A stretch of DNA of 64,000 nucleotides from an uncultured delta proteobacterium (GCA_963712115.1 CAVQGX010000031.1:256001-320000); one strand, 5' to 3'; counted from the stretch's first letter, positions 34,176-45,664 are shown. The notes: generated by a model not told the origin, from the letters alone. Numbers and translations are program-made.

Positions 34176-35534
34176 CTAGCGGACAATGTATTTCAGAAAG
34201 AAGGTGGAGATGGACAGGTAGATGAGAATCCCGGTTATGTCATTTGCAGTGGTGACAAAAGGCCCGGAGGCCACTGCTGGATCGACTCCCAAGCGCTTGA
34301 AGATGATGGGTACCAGGGTACCCATTAGTGAAGCAACCACGATGGCCGCTGCCATGGCACTGCCCACGGCAAATCCCAAAAAGGGATTGTGATGCCAGAT
34401 TTCGGCAATGGCTCCCAGGGTAAAACCACAGGCCAGGGCCATGAGCAGACCCACCCTGACTTCCTTGAAGATAGTACGGCCAAGCCTTTGCAGGTCAACA
34501 TCACCTGTGGCCAGACCCCTTACGGTGATGGTGGATGACTGGATGCCCACATTACCCCCCATGCCGGTGATTACCGGGACGAAGGTAATGAGGACTATGG
34601 CATCGTGCAGGGCGACCTTAAAGATCCAGAGGAGGTAGCCGGTCAACAAGCCCCCGAATAGGTTGGTGATAAGCCAGGGTAACCGGAGTCTGGAAATTTT
34701 CCAGATCTTATCTCCGTAGACCAGCTCATCTTCATGGCTGCCAACCATGCGGAGAATATCCTCGGAGACCTCTTCCTCAATGATATCCATGATGTCATCA
34801 ATGGTGATACGGCCAACCAGAGTGCCATCCTCTTCCACCACCGGAGCCGAGAGCAGGTCATATTTCTGGAATATGCGGGCCACATCTTCCTGATCCATAT
34901 CTACAGGAATGGACTGGAAATTTGTCTCCATGACCTGGGAGACTTTATCCCCGGGCTTTGCCAGGATGAGCCTCTTCAGGCTCAGTTGTCCAAGAACTCT
35001 AGACTGGGAATCGATAACGAAGACGTTGGTCAAGTAGTCGAGGTCCTCACCCAAGAGACGGACTCGATCAATAGCCTCAGCAACAGTTGCCTCCTGCGGC
35101 GCAGCCAAAAGCTCTGCCTGCATGATGCCACCGGCCGTTTCTTCCCCGTGAACGAGGAGCCGCCGCACGTGCTCCGAGTCCTCGGCGTCGATGCGAGCCA
35201 GCACTTTCTCGACCACTTCCTCAGGCATGCCGGTAAGAAGGTCAGCAGCATCATCCGAGTCCATCTCGTCCACGATTTGGCCGAGACGTCGATGAGATAG
35301 GTCAGAAAGAATCTGCTCTCGGGAGAATTCCGAGAGGTGAGCAATCACCTCTGAGGCGACCTCGGTATTTAACTTTTGGAAAACTGCTCTCTTTTCTTCT
35401 TCTTCAAGTGATTCTAATAGATCGGCTATGTCAGCGGAGTGGAACTGGGCGAGCATCTCCACCGCAGCATCAATCTGCTGTTGGTTCAGATATGAATTGA
35501 GTCTGGCTATGGTCTCAGTGCGATCTGGGATCAT
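34176..35534 (-). CDS. mgtE: Magnesium transporter MgtE
   Basis: MgtE_N, CBS pair, RLPWL, GMGGNVGIQS, DPAVASGPFVTTAND. Confidence 0.95.
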   Translation of the reverse strand: MIPDRTETIARLNSYLNQQQIDAAVEMLAQFHSADIADLLESLEEEEKRAVFQKLNTEVASEVIAHLSEFSREQILSDLSHRRLGQIVDEMDSDDAADLLTGMPEEVVEKVLARIDAEDSEHVRRLLVHGEETAGGIMQAELLAAPQEATVAEAIDRVRLLGEDLDYLTNVFVIDSQSRVLGQLSLKRLILAKPGDKVSQVMETNFQSIPVDMDQEDVARIFQKYDLLSAPVVEEDGTLVGRITIDDIMDIIEEEVSEDILRMVGSHEDELVYGDKIWKISRLRLPWLITNLFGGLLTGYLLWIFKVALHDAIVLITFVPVITGMGGNVGIQSSTITVRGLATGDVDLQRLGRTIFKEVRVGLLMALACGFTLGAIAEIWHHNPFLGFAVGSAMAAAIVVASLMGTLVPIIFKRLGVDPAVASGPFVTTANDITGILIYLSISTFFLKYIVR

Positions 35535-35566
35535 GATTGTATCACCCTTCCATCAATTGCCGCGCT

Positions 35567-35595
35567 AATGTACGCCTTTTGCGAAACGTCGTCAA
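35567..35595 (-). promoter_or_regulatory. sigma70 promoter candidate for mgtE
   Basis: Minus strand TTGACG-17 bp-TACATT. Confidence 0.5.
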
Positions 35596-35727
35596 GAAAG
35601 AGTTAAGTGAATATTTCTCATCAATTGTGACCTAGTCGTCGTCCCGCCGTTGGCGCTACTCCTCAGAATGACAACCGATAAGCGGGGGTTCCGGATGGTC
35701 AATAGTTAATCCGGGGGGCAGTAAATC

Positions 35728-35830
35728 GTTACAATTTGCAACTATTTTTTCTCCCGGAGCAACAACTGGTAAGATATTGATATAAATTAATAATATTATA
35801 TAATGACATGCCATCGTTACAATATGTAAC
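35728..35830. promoter_or_regulatory. Paired enhancer (UAS) palindromes upstream of TauE operon 2
   Basis: GTTACAATTTGCAAC (35728-35742) and GTTACAATATGTAAC (35816-35830). Confidence 0.7.
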
Positions 35831-35909
35831 ATTATATAAGTTTTGTCCAAGGCCATGAAATCGATCGATAATCAAATGATATCGATAGTATAGAGCTATT
35901 CTCCCACAT

Positions 35910-35924
35910 TGGCACGGTTGTTGA
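35910..35924 (+). promoter_or_regulatory. sigma54 promoter of TauE operon 2
   Basis: TGGCACG-GTTG-TTGA (-12 GA variant), correct spacing. Confidence 0.75.
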
Positions 35925-35981
35925 ACTGTTGTTAGGGCAAAGAGCAGGATAAAACACTTGAAGATAAGAGGAGGATAGAAA

Positions 35982-36155
35982 ATGAGTATCAGAGAAAAGC
36001 TTGAAAGGATCATGATGGCGATTACCTTCGCCGAGGCAGGGCAGAGTGAAACAGCCAGGGAGTTTCTCAAAGAGGAAAAGCGGCCCCGTTTGAGCAAGCG
36101 CACCGACAAAAGAACAAAGCCCCGCGCGCAAATGCGCTCCCCATCGATGAATTAA
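35982..36155 (+). CDS. 57-aa small protein with AITFAEAG motif (below the ORF-track cutoff)
   Basis: Strong RBS GAGGAGG; MSIREKLERIMMAITFAEAGQSETAREFLKEEKRPRLSKRTDKRTKPRAQMRSPSMN; first ORF after the sigma54 promoter. Confidence 0.8.
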   Translation: MSIREKLERIMMAITFAEAGQSETAREFLKEEKRPRLSKRTDKRTKPRAQMRSPSMN

Positions 36156-36210
36156 ACAGCCGGATGAGATTTAGCTTGTCAGAATATTGCCCATTTAAGG
36201 AAGGAGGACT

Positions 36211-36519
36211 ATGGTGTCCAAGAAAAGGAATAAGCAGGTAGGGAAAACACTTCTTTTCGGTTTGTTGTCAATAACCCTTTACGCCGCCGTATTTTCTCAT
36301 GGGACTGCGGTGGCGCACTTCTTTGCTCGGGGGGCGTGGTATGCCATTCTCCCGATCATAACAGTTTTTCTATTCTCCTTTGTCCATGGATCATTTGCCA
36401 GTCATGTCTGGACCCTACTGGGCATTGAAGCCAGGAAGACTGCACAGCATCGGCCCGAGAAGCGAAAGGCTCCCTCCAAGAGGAAGCAGCCCAGGCCTCG
36501 ACTTCAACTCCGTGCTTAG
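36211..36519 (+). CDS. Small membrane protein with basic C-terminal tail
   Basis: RBS GGAGG; two hydrophobic segments, FSFVHGSFA motif; tail KRKQPRPRLQLRA. Confidence 0.8.
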   Translation: MVSKKRNKQVGKTLLFGLLSITLYAAVFSHGTAVAHFFARGAWYAILPIITVFLFSFVHGSFASHVWTLLGIEARKTAQHRPEKRKAPSKRKQPRPRLQLRA

Positions 36520-36676
36520 TATTAGAATTCTAGCAGATTCTCCATGAGGGAGATGACGGGGGTCCCAGACGGAACCCATTCATCTCCCTCCCGTTTGGTC
36601 AAGTCGGCCTTGACAGCTTCGGAGGATTTTCGGGCTAGCACTAACCCCTATCAATACATTCAGGGAGGAATGGTAA

Positions 36677-37753
36677 ATGCATGATATAGCAGCGAATTTT
36701 ATCCACTTGAACTGGCTATCCATTGTTTTCCTCTTTCTCGTGGGCTTCGTCGGTGGTCTGGTGAGTGGTTTTATTGGATCCGGCGGGGCCTTTGTCTTGA
36801 CGCCCGGAATGATGAGCCTGGGTGTCCCCGGAAACGTCGCTGTGGCCAGCAATATGTGTCATAAATTTCCGAAAGCCCTGGTGGGCGCCTACAAGAGATT
36901 CAAATACGGCCAGGTCGACCTCAAGTTGGGACTAATCATGGCCGTATCTGCCACGGTGGGCGTCCAGGTTGGCATCCAGATTCAACACTGGATTCTCGCA
37001 AAATGGGGGCCGGCCGGCTCGAATCTTTATGTAAGTCTTGCCTTTGTGGTCGTACTGGTGGTCATTGGCGGTTATGTTTTCTACGACGCTTGGAAGCTGG
37101 CAAAAACGGGCGAGGCAGCGAAAGTTTCCATTTTGGCTCTCAAGCTGCAGAAGATTAATCTCCCACCAATGATTTATTTCAAGACCGCCAATCTGAGAAT
37201 ATCCCTCTGGTTTACTGTTCCAGTCGGATTTGCCACGGGGATGCTTGCTGCCACCATAGCTGTGGGTGGTTTTATTGGGGTCCCGGGCATGATCTACGTC
37301 GTTGGCGCCTCGGGGCTGGTTTCCTCGGCAACAGAGCTGGTAGTGGCTTTTGTTATGGGGTTGGGGGGTACGGTAAATTGGGCTTGGCATGGCATGGTTG
37401 ATATAAGGCTCACTTTAATTATTCTTGCCGGCTCTCTTTTTGGTGTGCAGCTAGGGGCCATCGGCACTACTTACGTGAAAGATTACATGATCAAGATAGT
37501 CATGGGATCTATTATGCTTATTGTCGCTGTCAGCAGGGGACTTGCCATACCGAAATATTTGACCCAGCTCAACCTTCTGACTTTGAAGGACCAGGTCACA
37601 GCAATGCTCACCAAGGCGAGCTTTGTCCTGATGTGCGTGGCCCTATCTACCGGTGCAGTAATTATCCTCGGCGCCATGTGGAAAGGAAGGCGGGCGGCAT
37701 CCTCTGCGGCAGTTGAAGAGGTGGGAACTGCGTCTGAAGTGGCGACTCACTAG
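36677..37753 (+). CDS. Sulfite exporter TauE/SafE family protein (2)
   Basis: GLVSGFIGSGGAFVLTP, AVASNMCHKFPKA, AATIAVGGFIGVP. Confidence 0.9.
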   Translation: MHDIAANFIHLNWLSIVFLFLVGFVGGLVSGFIGSGGAFVLTPGMMSLGVPGNVAVASNMCHKFPKALVGAYKRFKYGQVDLKLGLIMAVSATVGVQVGIQIQHWILAKWGPAGSNLYVSLAFVVVLVVIGGYVFYDAWKLAKTGEAAKVSILALKLQKINLPPMIYFKTANLRISLWFTVPVGFATGMLAATIAVGGFIGVPGMIYVVGASGLVSSATELVVAFVMGLGGTVNWAWHGMVDIRLTLIILAGSLFGVQLGAIGTTYVKDYMIKIVMGSIMLIVAVSRGLAIPKYLTQLNLLTLKDQVTAMLTKASFVLMCVALSTGAVIILGAMWKGRRAASSAAVEEVGTASEVATH

Positions 37754-37795
37754 GCAATAAGTCATAGATGGAATAAAAGTCTTTAGGAGATTTCA

Positions 37796-38651
37796 ATGGC
37801 AACTTTTGAGAGTATTCTGGTTTACGTTGACGGCTCGGAAGCGAGTTTAAATGCCTTGCGAGAATCGCTGCACCTTGCCCGAGCGGAAAAAAGTAAAATA
37901 ATGGCGGTATCTGTTGTCCCTCCTTATCAGGGGGATCTCAGGTTCGCCGGTCTAAGAGATATCAAGAGCTTACTGAAGGAACCTTGTGAAACCGCTCTTG
38001 ACAGAGGCAATGAAATTAGCAGAGGAAGAGTCCACTTTACTCACCACAGCGTGTATGGAGGGCGAACCTCATGAGGAGATTGTAGATCTCGCAGAGGCCG
38101 AAGGCTGTGATCTTATTGTCATGGGGATAGGCTCAGAGTCTATGGAAAAGGTCTTCGTTATGGGCAGCACCACTGCCAGAGTAATAGGCTACAGCCAGGT
38201 CGACGTCCTTGTTGTCCCGGAGAAGGCGACTATTGGCTGGCAAAATCTCCTCCTCGCTACTGACGGTTCCAAACACAGTGAAAAAGCGGCTGCACGGGCA
38301 GCGGCTATTGCTAAGTCCAACGGCGCAGAACTCAACATCGTCTCTGCCACAGATTTTGTCTGCGAGCTTTACGCTCAAGCACCGGAAGTGGGTGAAGCTT
38401 TAATCAAAAAGGCCAGGAAAACCTTGGATGCCAGCAAGAAGCGAGCTGATCTCGAAGGGTTGAATACAGAGTGTTTTGTGCGAGAAGGAGAGGCATACAA
38501 GGCAATAATTGACCTGGCGAAAGAAAAGAAAACTGAGATGATTGTCATTGGCTCCCATGGAAAGACGGGTTTAAAAAGGCTTCTTATGGGAAGTGTTGTG
38601 GAAAAAGTCATCGGTCATTCCCACTGTCCTGTACTCGTGGTCAAAGGGTGA
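37796..38651 (+). pseudogene. Tandem universal stress protein split by a +1 frameshift near 37997-38000
   Basis: ORF 37796 (MATFESILVYVDGS...PCETAL) continues in another frame as TEAMKLAEE...ATDGS...GSHGKTGLKRLLMGSV; removing one base gives one ~284-aa tandem USP. Confidence 0.8.
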
Positions 38652-38759
38652 ATGCAGTAGTTCTAACTTAAGACCAGCGATGAGGACGGCTGGAAAAATC
38701 CCGGGCAGATCAAACATAGATGTGATAATCGAGGAGCTGGCCGGGAGATCTTGCCTAAC

Positions 38760-39362
38760 ATGGCCAGAGAAACAGGAGCCGCGGCTGTGATCAAGAGTTT
38801 GATAGACCGGCTTTTCAAGAAAAAACCCGGACACAAGCGAGTAAATATCAGCGGCAGAAAGCGGCTGGGTTTAGCCAGACGCTTGGAAAGATATGGTGAG
38901 GCTGCAGCCCTGGCACAGGCAGGGTTGCAGGATGTAGCCCAAGAGATAATCCGTCGCGAGATTCAGGAACGTCCAAGAATCCTGGTGGTGGGAAGTGAGG
39001 ACGGGTTTTCCCGGCCCCTGGTTGATTACGCCATAGGGCTAGCCAAGCGCATGAAATATGAGATTGTCGCCCTGAACTGGGCGGACATCGCTACTGAGGC
39101 TCCCGAAAAGCTCAATCCCTATCGGGAGGAATTACTCGAGGAGTTCAAGGCAAGAGCGGCTAAGGCAGTCGAGCTACTAGCCTCGCGCGCCGCTGAAGAA
39201 GGTGTACCCCTTCGGCATGTGGTCAAGTCAGGTGGGCTGAGCACTAGCGTTCGTGAGCTGGAAAAGGAGGTTAGCCGCTTAAGCTTTGTCCTAACTGAAT
39301 CGGAGCCAACCCGAGAGTTGGGATTGGAGACATCGATTCCGGTCTTCTGTATCAACAAGTAA
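38760..39362 (+). CDS. USP-like protein with AxxLAQAG motif (start may be GTG 38787)
   Basis: EAAALAQAG..VAQEI followed by RILVVG..FS..LVDYAI USP-like fold; ends IPVFCI. Confidence 0.72.
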   Translation: MARETGAAAVIKSLIDRLFKKKPGHKRVNISGRKRLGLARRLERYGEAAALAQAGLQDVAQEIIRREIQERPRILVVGSEDGFSRPLVDYAIGLAKRMKYEIVALNWADIATEAPEKLNPYREELLEEFKARAAKAVELLASRAAEEGVPLRHVVKSGGLSTSVRELEKEVSRLSFVLTESEPTRELGLETSIPVFCINK

Positions 39363-39691
39363 AGAATCCAGGCCCGGCTTAGAAGGCCTTTCGTTCGCTG
39401 TTATTTGTGCCAGCTCACTTCGTTCGCCACCAGGCTCAAGGCTGAAGGCACAGGGCACAAGGCAAGAAAAATCAAATAAAACCTATCTTCTCCTTATGCC
39501 TTGCGCCTTATCTAAATCCGCAATCCGCAATCCGAAATTCGCAATGCTCTTCATCCAGCCAAATCCATTTCTCCAACAACAAGACCATACAGAGTCATTT
39601 TGACAAAACTTCTGCATGTAAGTGCGGTTCCTAAATGTGCTATACTGCGGCTACCAAATAATTCCTGGGTTACTTGCTGCAGGGGATAAAC

Positions 39692-41689
39692 ATGGCATTT
39701 TTTCGCAAGTCAGAAGAAAAGCAACAGTTTGAGGACCTTGAGCTGCTGCGCCAGGAAATCCTCAAGGCGAAGATGGCTCCTTCGGTAGAGGGTTACGCTG
39801 TCAAAGAACTGGATAAGCTCGAAAAGACTCCGGCGGAAGCAGCCGAATACGCCATCGGCATCAACCATCTGGAATACCTGGTGTCACTCCCATGGAATGT
39901 CCATACTGAGGACAACCTCGATCTCCATCATGTTGAAAACGTTCTCAACAGAGAACACGCAGGTCTCCCCCTGGTGAAAGAGCGAATCCTTGAGTACCTT
40001 GCGGTTCGCACTCTGAAAATCCAAAGGGATTTTCGCCTCCTGGTGGTGGACGACGAAGAAATCACTCGAGCCAATCTGCAACACATCCTGGAGAAGGAAG
40101 GCTACCAGGTGGCCGCTGCTACAAATGGTGCTGAAGCCTTGGAGAAAATGGAGAAGGCTTCCTTCGATCTCGTTCTCACCGACCTGCTGATGCTAAAGGT
40201 CGGAGGGATGGAGGTTCTCCAGCAGGTGAAGGATCGATATCCCCAAACCGACGTGGTTATCATTACCGGATTCGCCACGGTGCCATCCGCAGTGGAAGCG
40301 CTACAAAAAGGTGCCTACCACTACCTGGCCAAGCCGCTCAAGATCGATGAGGTAAGGAGCACGGTGAGCCAAGCGCTGGCCAAAAAACAAAAGGCGCACA
40401 GACCTAAAGGTCCAGTGCTCTGCTTTGTGGGGCCGCCGGGCACAGGCAAGACCTCCTTAGGAAAATCTATTGCCTCAGCCATGGGGAGAAAATTTATTCG
40501 CTTGGCTTTGGGTGGGATGAAAGATGAAGCTGAAATCAGGGGACATCGTCGCAGTTACGCCGGAGCCATGCCCGGACGGATCATAGATGCCGTCCGTCGG
40601 GTCGGGTCCAAGAACCCGGTTTTTATGCTGGATGAGATCGACAAGGTGGGCCAGGACTTCCGGGGCGACCCGGCCTCCGCCCTTCTCGAAGTATTGGACC
40701 CCGAGCAGAACGAGCACTTCCTGGATTATTACCTGGATGTGCCCTTTGACCTTTCCGGCGTGATGTTTATCGCCACCGCCAATCTGGTGGACCCTATCCC
40801 CAGGCCTCTGCTCGACCGGATGGAGCTCTTGGCTCTGCCCGGATATACCGATGAGGAAAAGAAACGCATTGCTCTCGAGTTCCTCGTCCCCCGGCAAATC
40901 GAAACCTCGGGCCTTTCCACCTCTCCCCCCGAGTTTACCCCGGAGGCGGTGCTGAAAATTATCAGAGAGCACACCAGGGAGGCCGGGTTGAGGAATCTCG
41001 AGCGGGAGATCGGCTCGATTTGCCGCAAGATCGCTCGAAAAGTTTTGCAACAAGGAGGAAAACAGAAATCGCTGATCGTCACTCCCGAGTTGGTGGAGGA
41101 ATATCTCGGGCCAAGGAAGTTCTACTACGAGGTTGCCGAGGCCAAAGATCGGATCGGAGTGACCACTGGCTTGGTCTGGACTGAAACAGGTGGGGATATC
41201 GTCTTTGTTGAGGCCACCAAGATGAAAGGAAATAATAAGTTGATCCTCACCGGCTCCCTGGGAGAGGTCATGCAGGAATCGGCCCAGGCTGCCTTAAGTT
41301 ACATCCGGAGCAACGCCGACCACTTCAAAATTGACCAGGATTTTTTCTCCGAGCATGACATCCACATACATGTACCTGCCGGCGCCATTACCAAGGATGG
41401 GCCCTCGGCAGGGCTCACCATAGCCATGGCCCTGATCTCGCTTTTGGCAGGCAGGCCTGCAAAGAGGCAGGTGGCCATGACCGGCGAACTGACCCTGACT
41501 GGCAGGATTCTCCCGGTTGCCGGGACCAGGGAAAAACTGCTGGCAGCTCGCCGGGCAGGAGTAAAGACTGTTGTCTTTCCTGAGAAAAACAGAGTTGATC
41601 TCGATGACCTTGGCGCTGATATTCGTGCGGATATTGAGGTGATTCTCACCGGTAGTGTCGAGGAGGTGGTAGATCTCGTATTGCGATAG
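39692..41689 (+). CDS. lon: Lon protease (S16) lacking the N-domain, with a receiver domain inserted before Walker A
   Basis: H.GL..VKERILEYLAV, inserted REC, GPPGTGKTS, GHRRSYAGAMPG, LDEIDK, KDGPSAG, REK. Confidence 0.92.
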   Translation: MAFFRKSEEKQQFEDLELLRQEILKAKMAPSVEGYAVKELDKLEKTPAEAAEYAIGINHLEYLVSLPWNVHTEDNLDLHHVENVLNREHAGLPLVKERILEYLAVRTLKIQRDFRLLVVDDEEITRANLQHILEKEGYQVAAATNGAEALEKMEKASFDLVLTDLLMLKVGGMEVLQQVKDRYPQTDVVIITGFATVPSAVEALQKGAYHYLAKPLKIDEVRSTVSQALAKKQKAHRPKGPVLCFVGPPGTGKTSLGKSIASAMGRKFIRLALGGMKDEAEIRGHRRSYAGAMPGRIIDAVRRVGSKNPVFMLDEIDKVGQDFRGDPASALLEVLDPEQNEHFLDYYLDVPFDLSGVMFIATANLVDPIPRPLLDRMELLALPGYTDEEKKRIALEFLVPRQIETSGLSTSPPEFTPEAVLKIIREHTREAGLRNLEREIGSICRKIARKVLQQGGKQKSLIVTPELVEEYLGPRKFYYEVAEAKDRIGVTTGLVWTETGGDIVFVEATKMKGNNKLILTGSLGEVMQESAQAALSYIRSNADHFKIDQDFFSEHDIHIHVPAGAITKDGPSAGLTIAMALISLLAGRPAKRQVAMTGELTLTGRILPVAGTREKLLAARRAGVKTVVFPEKNRVDLDDLGADIRADIEVILTGSVEEVVDLVLR

Positions 41690-41716
41690 GGACCTTGGCT
41701 TTGGGCTTCATTCACC

Positions 41717-43093
41717 CTACGGAGACGCCTCCTCGGAGTTTTCTTCCAATCCCCAGCGCTTTAGCTTACGCCACAGAGAAACCCTATCGATCCCCAGTAC
41801 TTCGGCAGCCCTCGTCTTATTCCCGTCCACCTGTTTCAAAACCCAGCTGACATATTCCACCTCATTCTCCTCCAAGGTGGGGAAACGCAGGCTGGCTTGC
41901 CGGTAGACCTTGAGGGAATACTGCCCTAGTTCCTGGGGGAGGTGCTTCGCCAGAATTTCCTCTTCGTTACAAAGGACAACAGCCCGCTCAACTATGTTTT
42001 CCAGCTCACGAATGTTCCCCGGGTATTCGTAGTTCATCAGGACTTCCATGGCTTCATCCGAGAAACCCTTGATGGATTTTCCCTGCGCCTCGGCATAACG
42101 TGCCAGAAAGTGATGCGCCAGCAGCGGGACGTCGTCCCTTCGCTCCGCCAGCGGAGGAAGGTGGAGACTGACCACATTGAGACGGTAGAAAAGATCCTTG
42201 CGGAATCCGCCTGTTTCCACCTCTTTATTCAAATCCTTGTTGGTGGCGGCAACAAGGCGGATGTCAACTTTGATAGGTTGGGTTCCCCCCACGCGAAGTA
42301 AGGACTTCTCCTCTATAACCCGCAGAAGTTTTACCTGCATGGAGGCAGGCATATCGCCAATCTCATCAAGAAAAACAGTACCCCTGTTTGCCGCCTCCAG
42401 AAGACCTATTTTGGTGGTGGTAGCCCCGGTAAAGGCATCTTTCTCGTGACCGAAAAGTTCATTGCTGAGGAGCTCCTCAGTGAAAGCCCCGCAGTTGAAA
42501 GCGACAAAACGCTCGTCGGCGCGGCTACTCTGGCGATGAATCGCCCGGGCGAACAGCTCTTTGCCCGTACCTGTCTCGCCAAAAATGAGGACATTACAGT
42601 CGGTGGGCGCAATCTGGCCTACCAGCGCGACAAGCTCTTGCATCTTCCTGCTCTTGCCTATGATAAAGGGGATTCCCCCTCCTCTGTGGTAATCCCGCTT
42701 GAGTACCCGAAGCTCGTCTTTGAGAGCCTTTTTTTCCAGGGCTCTCTTGGTGATCATCCGCACTTCATCTATCTTGTAAGGTTTGGGTATGTAGTGATAG
42801 GCTCCCTTTTGCATTGCTTCAATGGCGGTGGCCACCGTGGCGTATGCGGTGAGCATAACCACCTCGGTATCGGGATACTGCTCTTTTGTCCTGGCCAGAA
42901 CCTCCATGCCATCCACCTGCTTCATTTTCAGGTCGGTCATGACCAAGTCGAATTCAGTATTCGACAGCTTCTTGAGGGCACTAATTCCACTATCCGCCGT
43001 TGCAACATCATAACCATCTTTTCTCAGAATGTGTTCGAGGTTCTCCCTGGCGATGGCCTCGTCGTCTACGACAAGTATCCGGCTTTTGTTCAT
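41717..43093 (-). CDS. sigma54-dependent response regulator (REC-AAA+-HTH), EBP2
   Basis: REC; GETGTGKE; ELFGHEKDAFTGA; FRKDLFYRL; HTH GNKTRAAEVLGIDRVSLWRK. Confidence 0.95.
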   Translation of the reverse strand: MNKSRILVVDDEAIARENLEHILRKDGYDVATADSGISALKKLSNTEFDLVMTDLKMKQVDGMEVLARTKEQYPDTEVVMLTAYATVATAIEAMQKGAYHYIPKPYKIDEVRMITKRALEKKALKDELRVLKRDYHRGGGIPFIIGKSRKMQELVALVGQIAPTDCNVLIFGETGTGKELFARAIHRQSSRADERFVAFNCGAFTEELLSNELFGHEKDAFTGATTTKIGLLEAANRGTVFLDEIGDMPASMQVKLLRVIEEKSLLRVGGTQPIKVDIRLVAATNKDLNKEVETGGFRKDLFYRLNVVSLHLPPLAERRDDVPLLAHHFLARYAEAQGKSIKGFSDEAMEVLMNYEYPGNIRELENIVERAVVLCNEEEILAKHLPQELGQYSLKVYRQASLRFPTLEENEVEYVSWVLKQVDGNKTRAAEVLGIDRVSLWRKLKRWGLEENSEEASP

Positions 43094-43099
43094 CTGACT

Positions 43100-44557
43100 T
43101 TAGTCTCCCAAGTGCTTTTGGTCTCTGAGCGGGAGCCGGATGGTGAAGACGCTGCCCTCGCCTACCCTGCTCACCACGCTAAGGGTGCCACTATGCTGTT
43201 CGACGATTCCGTGGGCCACCGATAAGCCGAGTCCAGTACCATACCCAACCTCTTTGGTGCTAAAGAATGGGTCAAAGATGTGTGGCAAGTGATCTTCGGG
43301 GATACCGCAACCGGAATCCTTGACCAGGATTTCCACCTGTTTCGCTCTTTTATCCTCTACGGCGGTTATGGTGATGCGACCCACCTCGTTGGGCATGGCC
43401 TGAGAGGCGTTCACCAAGAGGTTGAGGAGGACTTCTTGCAGCTTTTGAGCATCTACATAGATATCCAACTCCTCGGGAATCTCGGTGAAGATTTCCACTC
43501 CTGCCGGCAACTGGCTGGAAATCAGTCTGGTGGTCCTGATTACCAGGTTTTCAAGGTTCACCCAATTCTCCTGGAATTCCCGCTCCCGGGAAAATTCCAG
43601 CAGACCCTTAACGATGTCGCGGGCTCTATCCACCTCTTGATCAATGTTGTTGAGGAGTTTTCTAATAAACTCTGAATTGCCGTCAGCGATTTCCTCCTGC
43701 AGAATCTGGCAAGAGGTGGAGATATTGTTCAAGGGGTTATTGAGCTGGTGGGCGATTCCGGATGTCAGAACTCCCAGGGAGGAAAGCTTCTGAGCCTGTA
43801 CGAGTTGATCCTGCCGCTTCTGAAGTTCGCTGATCATCTTGTTGAATGCCTCCACCACAGACTGGGTCTCATCCCTAGTCTGCACCACCGGCAGCGGTTT
43901 GAAATCTCCCTTGGCGATCCGCTGAGTGGTCCTCTCAATAACCGTGAGCGGCCCGACAATTTTCCGACTGACCAGCACAATCAGAAACAAGCCGAGAAGC
44001 AGGAGGATAGAAGCGGAGAAGAGAATCTTGGTCTTCAGGGATTTGACAATTTGCTGAACCCGGGTGTGCTCGAAGTCGGATAATCGCAAAGACAAATCAA
44101 CCAGATCCTTGCCGACTTGCCTGATCTCTGCCTCGATCTCTTCTTTAGATCGTGGGCTTGGATTGTCCTTGCCTTTTTCGGCCACAAGCTCCCGCAGAAG
44201 CTGACCATAACGCTCCATCTCGTTCTCGAGTCTTTCCAGATAGGTAACGCCCTTCAAACCCCTGACGTCAGGGTGTATGCGCAGATAGACCTCCTTTCCT
44301 CTTTCAAGGTAGGCAAGGGCCTCTTCATGGTTATCTCTTTGGCCGTAGAGAAGGAAATTTTTTTCATAACGCCTGGCTTCCAAGAGGGTATCGTGGAGTT
44401 CATGGCCTTTAACCACAAATTCAATTTTGCGCTCAATTGTTAAAAGGTTGCGGTAGGCAATGATTCCCACACCCACAAAGGCAATAATGGACATGAAAAA
44501 GCCCAAAATAACTTTCTGTCGAATGGAGAGATGTATCTTGGAGATGAATTTCACCAT
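43100..44557 (-). CDS. HAMP-domain sensor histidine kinase, HK2
   Basis: LEARRYEKNFLLY, HAMP, AHQLNNP, FDPFFSTK..GTGLGL. Confidence 0.93.
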   Translation of the reverse strand: MVKFISKIHLSIRQKVILGFFMSIIAFVGVGIIAYRNLLTIERKIEFVVKGHELHDTLLEARRYEKNFLLYGQRDNHEEALAYLERGKEVYLRIHPDVRGLKGVTYLERLENEMERYGQLLRELVAEKGKDNPSPRSKEEIEAEIRQVGKDLVDLSLRLSDFEHTRVQQIVKSLKTKILFSASILLLLGLFLIVLVSRKIVGPLTVIERTTQRIAKGDFKPLPVVQTRDETQSVVEAFNKMISELQKRQDQLVQAQKLSSLGVLTSGIAHQLNNPLNNISTSCQILQEEIADGNSEFIRKLLNNIDQEVDRARDIVKGLLEFSREREFQENWVNLENLVIRTTRLISSQLPAGVEIFTEIPEELDIYVDAQKLQEVLLNLLVNASQAMPNEVGRITITAVEDKRAKQVEILVKDSGCGIPEDHLPHIFDPFFSTKEVGYGTGLGLSVAHGIVEQHSGTLSVVSRVGEGSVFTIRLPLRDQKHLGD

Positions 44558-44737
44558 AGCACCCCTGCGCTGGTTTCTTCTGAACGATTTGTTTTCATAA
44601 TGATAGTTTACAAGGGCCTAAATAGCAAACGTCTAGATTGACCCCTTTCGGGTCAAAAGATGAGGTAGATCTTTAGGAAGAGAAAAGATTCAATCTCTTT
44701 ATTAGAACAATTCGTTTTTGCAGTGCTCAGTGCCTTT

Positions 44738-44973
44738 GGCCACTAGAGGTGGCCGTCATAACGCTGCGCTGTCATTATGCCTTCGGCGTCATTTATGTCA
44801 TTAGGTCAAGTATCGCTTCGCTGTCTCCATGCTCGTCCCCATGCGGGTAACCTAATGACGGCCGCGAGGCCAAATGACGGGCTTCAGCCCAAATGACGCC
44901 GAAGGCAAATGACCATTAATGACGGGCGCCAGCCCTATTGACGGCGCAGCCGAATGACGCGGAGCAAATGACC
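44738..44973. repeat. GTCATT/AATGAC mini-hairpin array, locus 3 (longest)
   Basis: GTCAT(T/A) at 44755, 44771, 44788, 44797; A(A/T)TGAC at 44854, 44873, 44892, 44908, 44918, 44937, 44953, 44967, mostly separated by different short palindromes. Confidence 0.85.
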
Positions 44974-44990
44974 TGTTAGTGCCTAGTGTA

Positions 44991-45380
44991 TTACTCTTCG
45001 TGCCCCAGGAGCTTCATGCGGAAACTGGCTGCCTCCTGTCTTTTAAGATCCAGTTCTTGCCACTCTTCCCGCAATGTCGCCATTAGCTGCCTCTGTTCCA
45101 GCCATAGCGCTTGGTCATTGCTGACTCTGTCGCTTTCTTGCCCTTCTCTGGGGGCCTGGAAGCCATTTTTGCCTTCAATTTCCTTTAGTCGTTTCTTTAC
45201 CGCGGCCACCTCTGCCTTCACTTCTCTCATCCGCGCCAGTATTGCTTCCTCATCGCGGGTTAAAGGCACGTAGTTCCCCTCGCATTCATCTTTTTTGTCG
45301 AAATATTGGTGACAAGCTGTGCAAGATTCGCCATTCTCAGTCACAGAAATGGTGCCATTTTTCTTGACGTCACTACTCAT
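44991..45380 (-). CDS. Hypothetical coiled-coil protein with N-terminal CTACH motif
   Basis: 129 aa; RBS GGAGG; CTACH..C then helical hairpin; no signal peptide. Confidence 0.75.
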   Translation of the reverse strand: MSSDVKKNGTISVTENGESCTACHQYFDKKDECEGNYVPLTRDEEAILARMREVKAEVAAVKKRLKEIEGKNGFQAPREGQESDRVSNDQALWLEQRQLMATLREEWQELDLKRQEAASFRMKLLGHEE

Positions 45381-45421
45381 TAAAATCCCTCCCTATCTAG
45401 AGCGCCCATGGCGTAAATACC

Positions 45422-45571
45422 AATATCGAATATCGAAATACGAAACAAATCCGAAATTCTAATTTCCAAATGCTCAAAACAACTTCCGGAAAAATTGACG
45501 ATCAGGTTTTGGTCATTTGAGTTTTGAAAATTCGAATTTGTTTAGGATTTAGTGCTTGGGATTTCGGATTT
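45422..45571. repeat. ~150-bp AT-rich imperfect inverted-repeat element, copy 1
   Basis: AATATCGAATATCGAAATACGAAACAAATCCGAA ... TTCGAATTTGTTTAGGATTTAGTGCTTGGGATTTCGGATTT; related copy at 59816-59975. Confidence 0.7.
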
Positions 45572-45664
45572 CAGGCTTTCGCTAATTACACTTCCCATAT
45601 CATCAGCACTTGATCAATCCCTATTGGTAATATAGTAACACCATAGATATTTTGCAAACACCCC

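What the first reader, a model, noticed from the sequence alone, without database searches (positions are those of the whole stretch)
39692..41689. Lon protease with an intact receiver domain spliced into the AAA+ module and no N-terminal domain
Seen: between EYLAVRTL and GPVLCFVGPPGTGKT, a short linker in canonical Lon, lies a full REC domain (about 40031-40390) with DDE, phospho-acceptor D (LTDLLM), T and KP. Walker A/B, the pore loop and the Ser-Lys dyad are intact, and the substrate-binding N-domain is absent. The REC closely resembles that of the convergent EBP2 (ENLEHILRKDGY versus ANLQHILEKEGY). REC-containing Lon genes are annotated in some sulfate reducers, but I know of no mechanistic study. 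Inference: a phosphorylation-gated protease controlled by the same kinase as EBP2.
Basis: partly seen in the sequence, partly recalled or inferred. Interest (0 to 1): 0.7.

Follow-up and report, generated by a model that had tools for sequence, protein, structure and literature searches.

The report
Lon protease with inserted receiver domain
This gene encodes a Lon protease that has lost its usual substrate-binding head and carries a phosphorylation-receiver domain spliced into its ATPase; the design is conserved, was already noted in sulfate-reducing bacteria, and its mechanism has never been tested biochemically.

Summary
Window 39692-41689(+) encodes a 665-aa LonA-derived protease. A complete receiver (REC) domain (res ~113-236) sits where canonical Lon has 2-9 residues, between the 'EYLAV' helix and the Walker-A strand. 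The LON N-domain is absent. All phospho-acceptor, ATPase and Ser-Lys residues are invariant in 70 family members.

It is not new. It is the same gene family and module as Desulfovibrio vulgaris DVU3303 in the DVU3303-3305 'three-component system' (Rajeev 2011; Trotter 2023), where phosphorylation-dependent protease activity was already proposed.

Here I show:
- The family has a single origin inside LonA.
- It occurs in 45 of 401 sampled genomes of the phylum.
- It is usually linked to a histidine kinase plus sigma54 activator (31 of 45 loci) and to a small-TM/TauE/Usp operon.
- The window carries the DVU3305-type palindromic enhancer pair and a sigma54 promoter with the conserved geometry.
- The Lon REC and the partner activator's REC are sister lineages. 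The activator's REC is the closest of 88 other RECs in the genome on the kinase-facing helix.

This supports one kinase feeding both outputs. Gating of proteolysis by phosphorylation remains inference; I found no biochemical study. Verdict: real, interesting, a new member of a known but mechanistically unstudied kind.

The parts
39692..41689 (+). REC-Lon CDS (665 aa, P0001)
   Evidence: start supported by family consensus
39692..40024 (+). N-terminal helical region (res 1-111): the end of the LonA long helix, the helical bundle and the 'EYLAV' helix. It replaces a ~250-aa N-terminal region that includes the LON domain.
   Evidence: aligns to E. coli Lon 249-342; five helices in the AF2 model; canonical Lons have a median of 253 residues before this point, REC-Lons 14
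40028..40399 (+). Inserted receiver (REC) domain, res 113-236; phospho-acceptor D164 codon at 40181-40183
   Evidence: Pfam PF00072; complete (beta-alpha)5 fold in the AF2 model, beta1 115-119 to alpha5 218-235; best solved relative is the Aquifex NtrC1 receiver 1zy2, E 1.2e-24
40403..41062 (+). AAA+ module (alpha/beta subdomain plus Lon lid); Walker A 40430-40453, Walker B 40631-40636
   Evidence: Pfam AAA and Lon_lid; invariant residues
41078..41683 (+). S16 protease domain; catalytic S572 (41405-41407) and K615 (41534-41536)
   Evidence: Pfam Lon_C E 9e-82; alignment to E. coli S679/K722; invariant
41717..43093 (-). Partner sigma54 enhancer-binding response regulator (REC-AAA-HTH_8), DVU3305-type
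   Evidence: Pfam; REC is sister to the Lon REC; found near REC-Lon in 36 of 45 loci
43100..44557 (-). Membrane histidine kinase (HAMP-HisKA-HATPase_c), upstream of and co-directional with the EBP
   Evidence: Pfam; found near REC-Lon in 31 of 45 loci
35728..35830 (.). Pair of 15-bp palindromes (GTTACAATTTGCAAC at 35728, GTTACAATATGTAAC at 35816), 88 bp apart: candidate EBP enhancer (UAS)
   Evidence: consensus GTTGCA-N3-TGCAAC found in 45 of 58 REC-Lon upstream regions at <=2 mismatches (shuffled mean 1.26); matches the DVU3305 site GTTGCGATATGCAAC of Rajeev Table S7
35910..35925 (+). sigma54-type promoter TGGCACGGTTGTTGAA, with A instead of C at -12
   Evidence: the same element sits 80-96 nt beyond the distal palindrome in 30 of 36 loci; 95 nt in the window
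35982..36155 (+). 57-aa ORF, the first gene after the sigma54 promoter; a conserved small-protein module of these loci
   Evidence: tblastn matches in 27 REC-Lon loci; no Pfam/NCBIfam family
36211..39362 (+). Target operon: small 2-TM protein (36211-36519), TauE/SafE anion exporter (36677-37753), tandem Usp (37796-38651, apparently frameshifted), Usp-like protein (38751-39362)
   Evidence: Pfam; synteny with REC-Lon: smallTM 28/45, TauE 27/45, Usp-like 27/45; frameshift

Best explanation
REC-Lon is a LonA-derived ATP-dependent serine protease. It has lost the N-terminal substrate-binding domain, and an NtrC1-like receiver domain is inserted in the loop between the helix that precedes the Walker-A strand and that strand. 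It is one of two outputs of a branched two-component pathway. The membrane histidine kinase at 43100-44557 phosphorylates both the sigma54 activator (41717-43093) and D164 of the Lon REC. The phosphorylated activator binds the palindrome pair at 35728/35816 and fires the sigma54 promoter at 35910, driving the small-ORF/small-TM/TauE/Usp operon; here Lon lies downstream on the same strand. Phosphorylation of the Lon REC switches the protease, most likely on. The REC's alpha5 helix runs with only about 6 residues into the Walker-A strand, and the preceding helix leads straight into REC beta1, so a change at the alpha4-beta5-alpha5 face can reach the nucleotide site or subunit packing. What is shown: the architecture, residue conservation, single origin, gene linkage, the enhancer/promoter and the REC sisterhood. 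What is inferred: phosphotransfer from this kinase, the direction of the switch, and the substrates.
For: Architecture and intact catalytic and phospho-acceptor residues. AF2 model (mean pLDDT 82, pTM 0.74) with a complete REC and alpha5 218-235 leading to AAA+ beta1 242-246. Top structural matches are LonA hexamer chains. On a tree built without the REC columns, REC-Lon (59 rows) is one side of a branch with support 100. The Lon REC plus partner-EBP REC form one group of 28 (SH-aLRT 83) apart from 32 other RECs. An AU test does not reject Lon-REC monophyly (p 0.905). The partner EBP is the best REC paralog genome-wide (141 against 105 bits). It is also top of 88 on alpha1 (9/14; others median 4, max 7) and beta5-alpha5 (7/9). 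Linkage in 45 surveyed loci: EBP 36, HK 31, TauE 27. Enhancer palindromes and a fixed-distance sigma54 element. The palindrome is identical in type to the DVU3305 site in Rajeev 2011 Table S7. D. vulgaris genetics give DVU3303:3305 pairwise cofitness >0.9 (Trotter 2023 passage). [quoted passage not shown]
Against: No phosphotransfer, ATPase or protease measurement exists for any member. The cofitness evidence may be partly polar: in the Desulfovibrio-type locus L024 the order is Lon, HK, EBP on one strand, so insertions in Lon could silence the kinase and activator. In 14 of 45 loci no HK was found within 8.5 kb, although some of those contigs are short. The direction of the switch is unknown. 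I could not inspect model coordinates or PAE, so the REC's position relative to the ring is not established. The alpha1 and beta5-alpha5 segments as kinase-contact surfaces are recalled from the two-component literature and were not tested here.
Confidence: 0.62

Rival explanations
1. Feedback or sink device. The Lon REC competes with the activator for the kinase's phosphoryl groups, or the protease degrades the phosphorylated activator, the kinase or the induced Usp/small proteins. REC-Lon would then terminate or dampen the response instead of being a parallel positive output.
For: Two sister RECs with near-identical alpha1 must compete for one kinase. The near palindrome lies only 31-61 nt from the Lon start codon in 6 of 36 loci, which suggests the activator may occlude rather than activate Lon transcription. 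The sigma54 element points toward Lon in only 1 of 36 loci.
Against: In D. vulgaris, mutants in Lon, HK and EBP show the same fitness pattern (cofitness >0.9; Trotter 2023 passage), not opposite ones. Polarity could mask this.
Confidence: 0.18
2. Assembly switch. As in NtrC1/DctD-type activators (recalled), unphosphorylated REC dimers hold the AAA+ modules in an inactive dimer or open form, and phosphorylation releases them to form the active hexamer. On this reading the REC also substitutes for the missing N-domain's ring-organising role.
For: The REC's best solved relative is the Aquifex NtrC1 receiver (E 1.2e-24). Alpha5 is long (18 residues) and joins the AAA+ core directly. The N-domain, which helps organise LonA rings (recalled), is absent.
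Against: There are no oligomer data. The REC is inserted in a loop rather than fused at the N-terminus through a coiled coil as in NtrC1. This is a sub-mechanism of the best explanation, not an exclusive alternative.
Confidence: 0.15
3. Phosphorylation-independent REC. The inserted domain is a structural or substrate/adaptor-docking module, for example heterodimerising with the activator's REC, and is never phosphorylated.
For: The N-terminal recognition domain is missing, so something else must select substrates. The alpha4-beta5-alpha5 region is highly conserved in both REC lineages.
Against: D120, D121, D164, T192 and K214 are invariant in 70 of 70 family members and in 15 of 15 Lon RECs from independent loci. 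Pseudo-receivers typically lose some of these (recalled).
Confidence: 0.05

Closest known systems
DVU3303 of Desulfovibrio vulgaris Hildenborough (DVU3303-3305 'three-component system'; Rajeev et al. 2011, Trotter et al. 2023, Kazakov et al. 2015)
   Same: A response regulator containing a Lon protease, next to a histidine kinase and a sigma54 response regulator. A divergent or adjacent operon holds membrane, hypothetical and UspA proteins. The activator binding motif is the same type: GTTGCGATATGCAAC against the window's GTTACAATTTGCAAC and GTTACAATATGTAAC.
   Different: Gene order differs. In the window HK-EBP are convergent with Lon and the target operon is co-directional upstream of Lon. 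In D. vulgaris and L024 the order is Lon-HK-EBP with a divergent target operon. I did not fetch the DVU3303 sequence itself, so orthology rests on architecture, synteny and the motif.
Canonical LonA (E. coli Lon 6u5z, B. subtilis LonA 3m6a, Meiothermus LonA 4ypl/7fd4)
   Same: The AAA+ and S16 protease modules align end to end (E 1e-160 to 1e-168; Foldseek TM up to 0.88 on the target). Walker A/B, pore-loop Tyr and the Ser-Lys dyad are present. The protein passes the NCBIfam 'lon' equivalog cut-off (720 against 608 bits).
   Different: There is no LON N-domain: about 250 residues are missing. A 120-128-residue REC is inserted where LonA has 2-9 residues.
NtrC1/DctD/NtrC-type sigma54 activators (REC-regulated AAA+ ATPases)
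   Same: A receiver of the same subfamily sits directly upstream of an AAA+ core (1zy2, 1ny5, 4l4u). The likely logic is that phosphorylation controls an AAA+ ring.
   Different: The AAA+ belongs to the Lon clade and feeds a protease rather than sigma54. The REC is an internal insertion flanked on both sides by Lon sequence.
RssB and CpdR (receiver-domain adaptors that control ClpXP proteolysis; recalled, with RssB papers seen only in search listings)
   Same: Two-component phosphorylation is coupled to AAA+ proteolysis.
   Different: Those act in trans as adaptors. Here the receiver is part of the protease polypeptide.

Membership tests
LonA (endopeptidase La, MEROPS S16) | AAA+ module with Walker A, Walker B, sensor and Arg-finger motifs of the Lon clade | tested here: met
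   Pfam AAA and Lon_lid; alignment to E. coli and B. subtilis Lon; invariant G247-T254, D314/E315, N364, R376
LonA (endopeptidase La, MEROPS S16) | S16 protease domain with Ser-Lys dyad | tested here: met
   Lon_C E 9e-82; S572 and K615 align to S679 and K722 and are invariant
LonA (endopeptidase La, MEROPS S16) | N-terminal LON substrate-binding domain (PF02190) | tested here: not met
   No Pfam hit. The protein starts at the equivalent of E. coli residue ~235-250. The family median is 14 residues of open frame before residue 1, against 253 in canonical Lons.
LonA (endopeptidase La, MEROPS S16) | Scores above the curated NCBIfam equivalog cut-off (TIGR00763) | tested here: met
   719.9 bits against a cut-off of 608.05, matched in 2 stretches
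LonA (endopeptidase La, MEROPS S16) | ATP-dependent hexameric protease activity | not testable with these tools
   Only a monomer model was made
Response regulator receiver (PF00072) | (beta-alpha)5 fold with acidic pair, phospho-acceptor Asp, Thr/Ser and Lys | tested here: met
   Pfam 100.9 bits against 30.2; fold in the model; D120, D121, D164, T192, K214 invariant
Response regulator receiver (PF00072) | Phosphotransfer from a cognate histidine kinase | not testable with these tools
   Indirect only: sister REC, alpha1 match, synteny
DVU3303-type REC-Lon three-component module | REC-containing Lon adjacent to an HK and a sigma54 response regulator | tested here: met
   Window genes at 39692-44557; the same linkage holds in 31 of 45 surveyed loci
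DVU3303-type REC-Lon three-component module | DVU3305-type palindromic binding site and sigma54 promoter in front of the membrane/Usp operon | tested here: met
   Window sites at 35728 and 35816 with the promoter at 35910; motif given in Rajeev Table S7
DVU3303-type REC-Lon three-component module | Direct sequence orthology to DVU3303 | not tested
   The D. vulgaris sequence was not fetched. L024, labelled Desulfovibrio sp., is 49% identical and falls in the same clade.

The most novel reading that the evidence does not exclude
The REC insertion makes Lon an on-demand protease. Unphosphorylated REC pairs would keep the AAA+ ring open or the nucleotide site blocked, and phosphorylation by the shared kinase would close an active hexamer. 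With the N-domain gone, the REC (or REC-REC contacts with the sister activator) would also choose the substrates. Candidate substrates are the unannotated 57-aa protein module and the Usp-like proteins that the same signal induces. This would be the first AAA+ protease directly gated in cis by two-component phosphorylation.
Probability: 0.2. Interest if true: 0.7.

Novelty: new member of a known kind. Interest (0 to 1): 0.4.

Why it matters
Lon is normally treated as a constitutive quality-control and regulatory protease, controlled through its substrates, adaptors or small ligands. A Lon whose ATPase carries its own receiver domain would link a membrane sensor directly to proteolysis, in parallel with sigma54 transcription from the same kinase. 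The family is conserved (45 of 401 sampled genomes of the phylum) and sits in a stress/anion-export module that has a genetic phenotype in D. vulgaris. Databases label it simply 'endopeptidase La', and no biochemistry exists. The insertion point, the invariant residues, the partner kinase and the enhancer defined here give a ready experimental system. The idea itself, however, is not new.

Tried and rejected
1. Recent gene conversion between the Lon REC and the neighbouring EBP REC. The quick tree placed the window's Lon REC outside the starred Lon-REC clade, nearest its own EBP. However, the AU test favoured Lon-REC monophyly (constrained tree better by 21 lnL, p 0.905), and identity to orthologous Lon RECs (up to 57%) equals that to the EBP (58%). 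Rejected.
2. A canonical sigma54 consensus (TGGCAC-N5-TTGCW, GC fixed) in Lon upstream regions gave almost nothing. The real element has a non-C at -12 and was found only after locating the palindromes.
3. A sigma54 promoter or palindromes directly upstream of the window's Lon (39363-39691) or of the HK: none found.
4. Family size from the 50%-identity representative library. The count at E<=1e-30 (861) is inflated by multi-REC proteins. Only 17 of the best 150 span the junction, so no reliable total is given.
5. The search for related loci with the whole protein returned mostly canonical Lons. About 14 of 80 loci were REC-Lon, so the survey was redone with a junction-spanning query.
8. Rfam scan of 35400-45600: no family matched.
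9. Model coordinates and PAE were not available to me, so the REC's position on the hexamer could not be mapped.

Full report
OBSERVATION. The ORF at 39692-41689(+) is real and translates without stops to 665 aa (P0001). Pfam finds, in order, Response_reg (117-225), AAA (243-378), Lon_lid (405-457) and Lon_C (463-664), and no LON N-domain. phmmer against all PDB chains aligns residues 15-108 to B. subtilis Lon 3m6a 9-102 and E. coli Lon 249-342. It aligns residues 234/238-664 to E. coli Lon 343-771. The receiver therefore occupies exactly the junction between the '...VKERILEYLAV' helix and the 'KGPxLC...GPPGxGKT' strand. In an alignment of 59 REC-Lons and 65 canonical Lons, the REC columns hold 119-128 residues in the former and 2-9 (median 2) in the latter. 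The catalytic Ser (S572 = E. coli S679) and Lys (K615 = K722), Walker A/B and the pore-loop Tyr are present. Together with the receiver's D120/D121/D164/T192/K214, they are invariant in 70 of 70 aligned family members. The window's pore loop is Y-A where the family consensus is Y-V. The ATG at 39692 is the conserved start. An AlphaFold2 model built on the 70-sequence alignment (mean pLDDT 82.1, pTM 0.74) shows five N-terminal helices and a complete (beta-alpha)5 receiver (beta1 115-119 to alpha5 218-235). It then shows the AAA+ beta1 at 242-246, about six residues after alpha5. Foldseek's best matches are LonA hexamer chains.

FAMILY. The 120 best database relatives of residues 1-260 all carry REC plus AAA; the full-length ones are about 665 aa, also carry Lon_C, and are named 'endopeptidase La' or 'ATP-dependent Lon protease'. 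The protein passes NCBIfam's generic Lon equivalog (720 against 608 bits), which explains the uninformative name. The window's genome also has two full-length canonical Lons. A junction-spanning query (residues 60-300) against 401 genomes of the phylum gave 46 full-junction matches in 45 genomes, G000 included, plus two matches cut by contig ends. On a FastTree of 124 Lons built without the REC columns, the 59 REC-Lons are one side of a branch with support 100. The nearest canonical Lons are three full-length LonAs from Geobacteraceae/Desulfuromonadaceae-labelled MAGs. This fits a single insertion event inside LonA together with loss of the N-domain. It is a FastTree result without an AU test or a secure root.

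CONTEXT. In 13 named loci and 45 surveyed loci with 8.5-kb flanks, REC-Lon is linked to a sigma54 activator and a histidine kinase. The activator is present in 36 of 45 loci (33 at 50% identity or more to the window's), the kinase in 31 of 45, and both in 31 of 45. REC-Lon is also linked to a small 2-TM protein (28 of 45), a TauE/SafE exporter (27 of 45), a Usp-like protein (27 of 45) and a tandem Usp (14 of 45). Several loci without these genes are short contigs. An unbiased k-mer count led to a 15-bp palindrome, GTTGCA-N3-TGCAAC. It is present in 38 of 58 Lon-upstream regions at up to 1 mismatch (shuffled mean 0.08) and in 45 of 58 at up to 2 (shuffled mean 1.26). It usually occurs as a pair about 88 bp apart (36 loci). 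In 30 of those 36, a sigma54-type element (GGC-N8-TTG) lies 80-96 nt beyond the distal palindrome and points away from Lon toward the Usp-like/small-TM/TauE operon. Only 1 of 36 has such an element pointing toward Lon, and 2% of shuffled 140-nt segments match. The window has the same parts with the same spacing: palindromes at 35728 and 35816 and TGGCACGGTTGTTGAA at 35910 (95 nt). Here, however, the operon is co-directional with Lon and lies upstream of it.

LITERATURE. Rajeev et al. [quoted passage not shown] They call this a three-component system. It regulates its own operon and DVU3302-3298 (membrane, hypothetical and UspA proteins) and is induced by several stresses. [quoted passage not shown] Their DVU3305 site upstream of DVU3303 is GTTGCGATATGCAAC at -89, the palindrome I found independently. 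They also note orthologous pairs in other Desulfovibrio, Thermodesulfovibrio, Thioalkalivibrio and Dechloromonas. Trotter et al. 2023 (PMC10102598, passages) report that DVU3303:DVU3305 have pairwise cofitness >0.9 and are detrimental in chlorate, and that the target DVU3299 (putative anion transporter) is important in chlorate. Kazakov et al. 2015 (PMC4641369, one table passage) list the same regulon. Six full-text searches found no biochemical or structural study of a receiver-containing Lon. The library lacks most subscription journals.

SAME KINASE? The window's Lon REC is 59% identical to the neighbouring activator's REC. Among the other 98 REC domain hits in the genome, that activator is the best (141 bits, next 105). 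In a 60-row REC tree, 15 Lon RECs and 13 partner-activator RECs form one group (SH-aLRT 83) apart from 32 other RECs. Fourteen Lon RECs form a starred clade and the window's sits unresolved beside it. An AU test does not reject monophyly of all Lon RECs. Within-locus identity between the two RECs is 39-58% across 13 loci. On the alpha1 helix and the beta5-alpha5 segment, the partner activator is first of 88 RECs: 9/14 and 7/9 identical, others median 4 and maximum 7 on alpha1. I recall these two segments as the main kinase-contact surfaces of receivers; that role was not tested here. Alpha1 is nearly the same in both lineages across loci. This is what one expects if an old duplication produced two receivers that stayed matched to one kinase.

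MECHANISM. Most likely (0.62) this is a branched pathway in which one kinase drives a transcriptional output and a proteolytic output, and phosphorylation of D164 modulates Lon. The short, probably rigid links on both sides of the REC put it next to the Walker-A strand. I recall that the segment preceding AAA+ beta1 helps hold the adenine. A change at the alpha4-beta5-alpha5 face could therefore act on nucleotide binding, on subunit packing, or, as in NtrC1/DctD (recalled), on ring assembly. The D. vulgaris cofitness suggests the phosphorylated form is the active one. That inference is weakened because Lon is the first gene of a Lon-HK-EBP string in Desulfovibrio-type loci (L024), so insertions may be polar. 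Rival readings are a sink or feedback protease, a phosphorylation-independent docking domain, and the assembly switch as a sub-mechanism. They are scored separately. Substrates are unknown. Without the N-domain, recognition must come from elsewhere. The co-induced 57-aa protein module and Usp-like proteins are candidates only by association.

VERDICT. The gene is a new member of a known, genetically characterised but biochemically unstudied family. What this analysis adds:
- the exact insertion topology;
- evidence for a single origin within LonA;
- a prevalence estimate;
- the sister relationship and kinase-surface match of the two receivers;
- the conserved enhancer/promoter geometry, which points away from Lon;
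- several side observations.

Noticed in passing
window 35910-35925 and 30 related loci: The sigma54 promoter of this module has a conserved non-canonical -12 box. The base after TTG is A in 16, T in 8, G in 3 and C in only 3 of 30 loci, where the textbook consensus (recalled) is TTGC. The window has TTGA.
   Followed up: partly
window 35982-36155 (+): A 57-aa ORF with a good RBS lies directly after the sigma54 promoter. Its motif (IREKLERI..A.TFAEAG) gives tblastn matches in 27 REC-Lon loci, often several per locus. It weakly resembles residues 39-77 of the window's Usp-like protein (33% over 39 aa, E 0.27). No Pfam or NCBIfam family matches.
   Followed up: partly
window 37796-38651 (+): The tandem-Usp gene is split over two reading frames. 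The intact 274-aa ORF of relative L010 aligns to the window in frame 3 (residues 3-70) and frame 1 (residues 88-273). This is either a frameshift or an assembly error.
   Followed up: partly
proteins P0138, P0148, P0152, P0207: These 375-382-aa relatives keep the N-helices and an intact REC. Their Walker A and B motifs are degenerate, and the proteins end after the AAA+ alpha/beta subdomain, with no lid and no protease. They look like a pseudo-ATPase offshoot of REC-Lon. Genomic context was not examined.
   Followed up: partly
window 36211-39691 against relatives: In most relatives the Usp-like/small-TM/TauE/Usp operon is divergent from Lon, with the Usp-like gene first. In the window the operon is co-directional with Lon and the Usp-like gene is last, next to Lon. 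This is a rearrangement that could place Lon under read-through from the sigma54 promoter.
   Followed up: partly
window 39518-39548 and 39638-39646: The 330-nt spacer before Lon contains four CGCAAT-like repeats and an extended -10-like TGCTATACT 46 nt before the ATG. No sigma54-like element or palindrome is present there.
   Followed up: no
window 44748-44973: The spacer upstream of the histidine kinase is rich in repeats. There are direct repeats of 28-41 nt built on AATGACG units, and a perfect 17-nt inverted repeat (44778-44794 / 44891-44907). No Rfam family matches.
   Followed up: partly
G061 (L120 and L121): One genome carries two REC-Lon paralogs. One has the full HK/EBP/TauE/Usp neighbourhood. 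The other has only a distant EBP (42% identity) nearby.
   Followed up: no
36 related loci: The proximal palindrome lies only 31-61 nt from the Lon start codon in 6 of 36 loci (L007, L119, L131, L142, L143, L154). Activator binding there may overlap Lon's own promoter.
   Followed up: no
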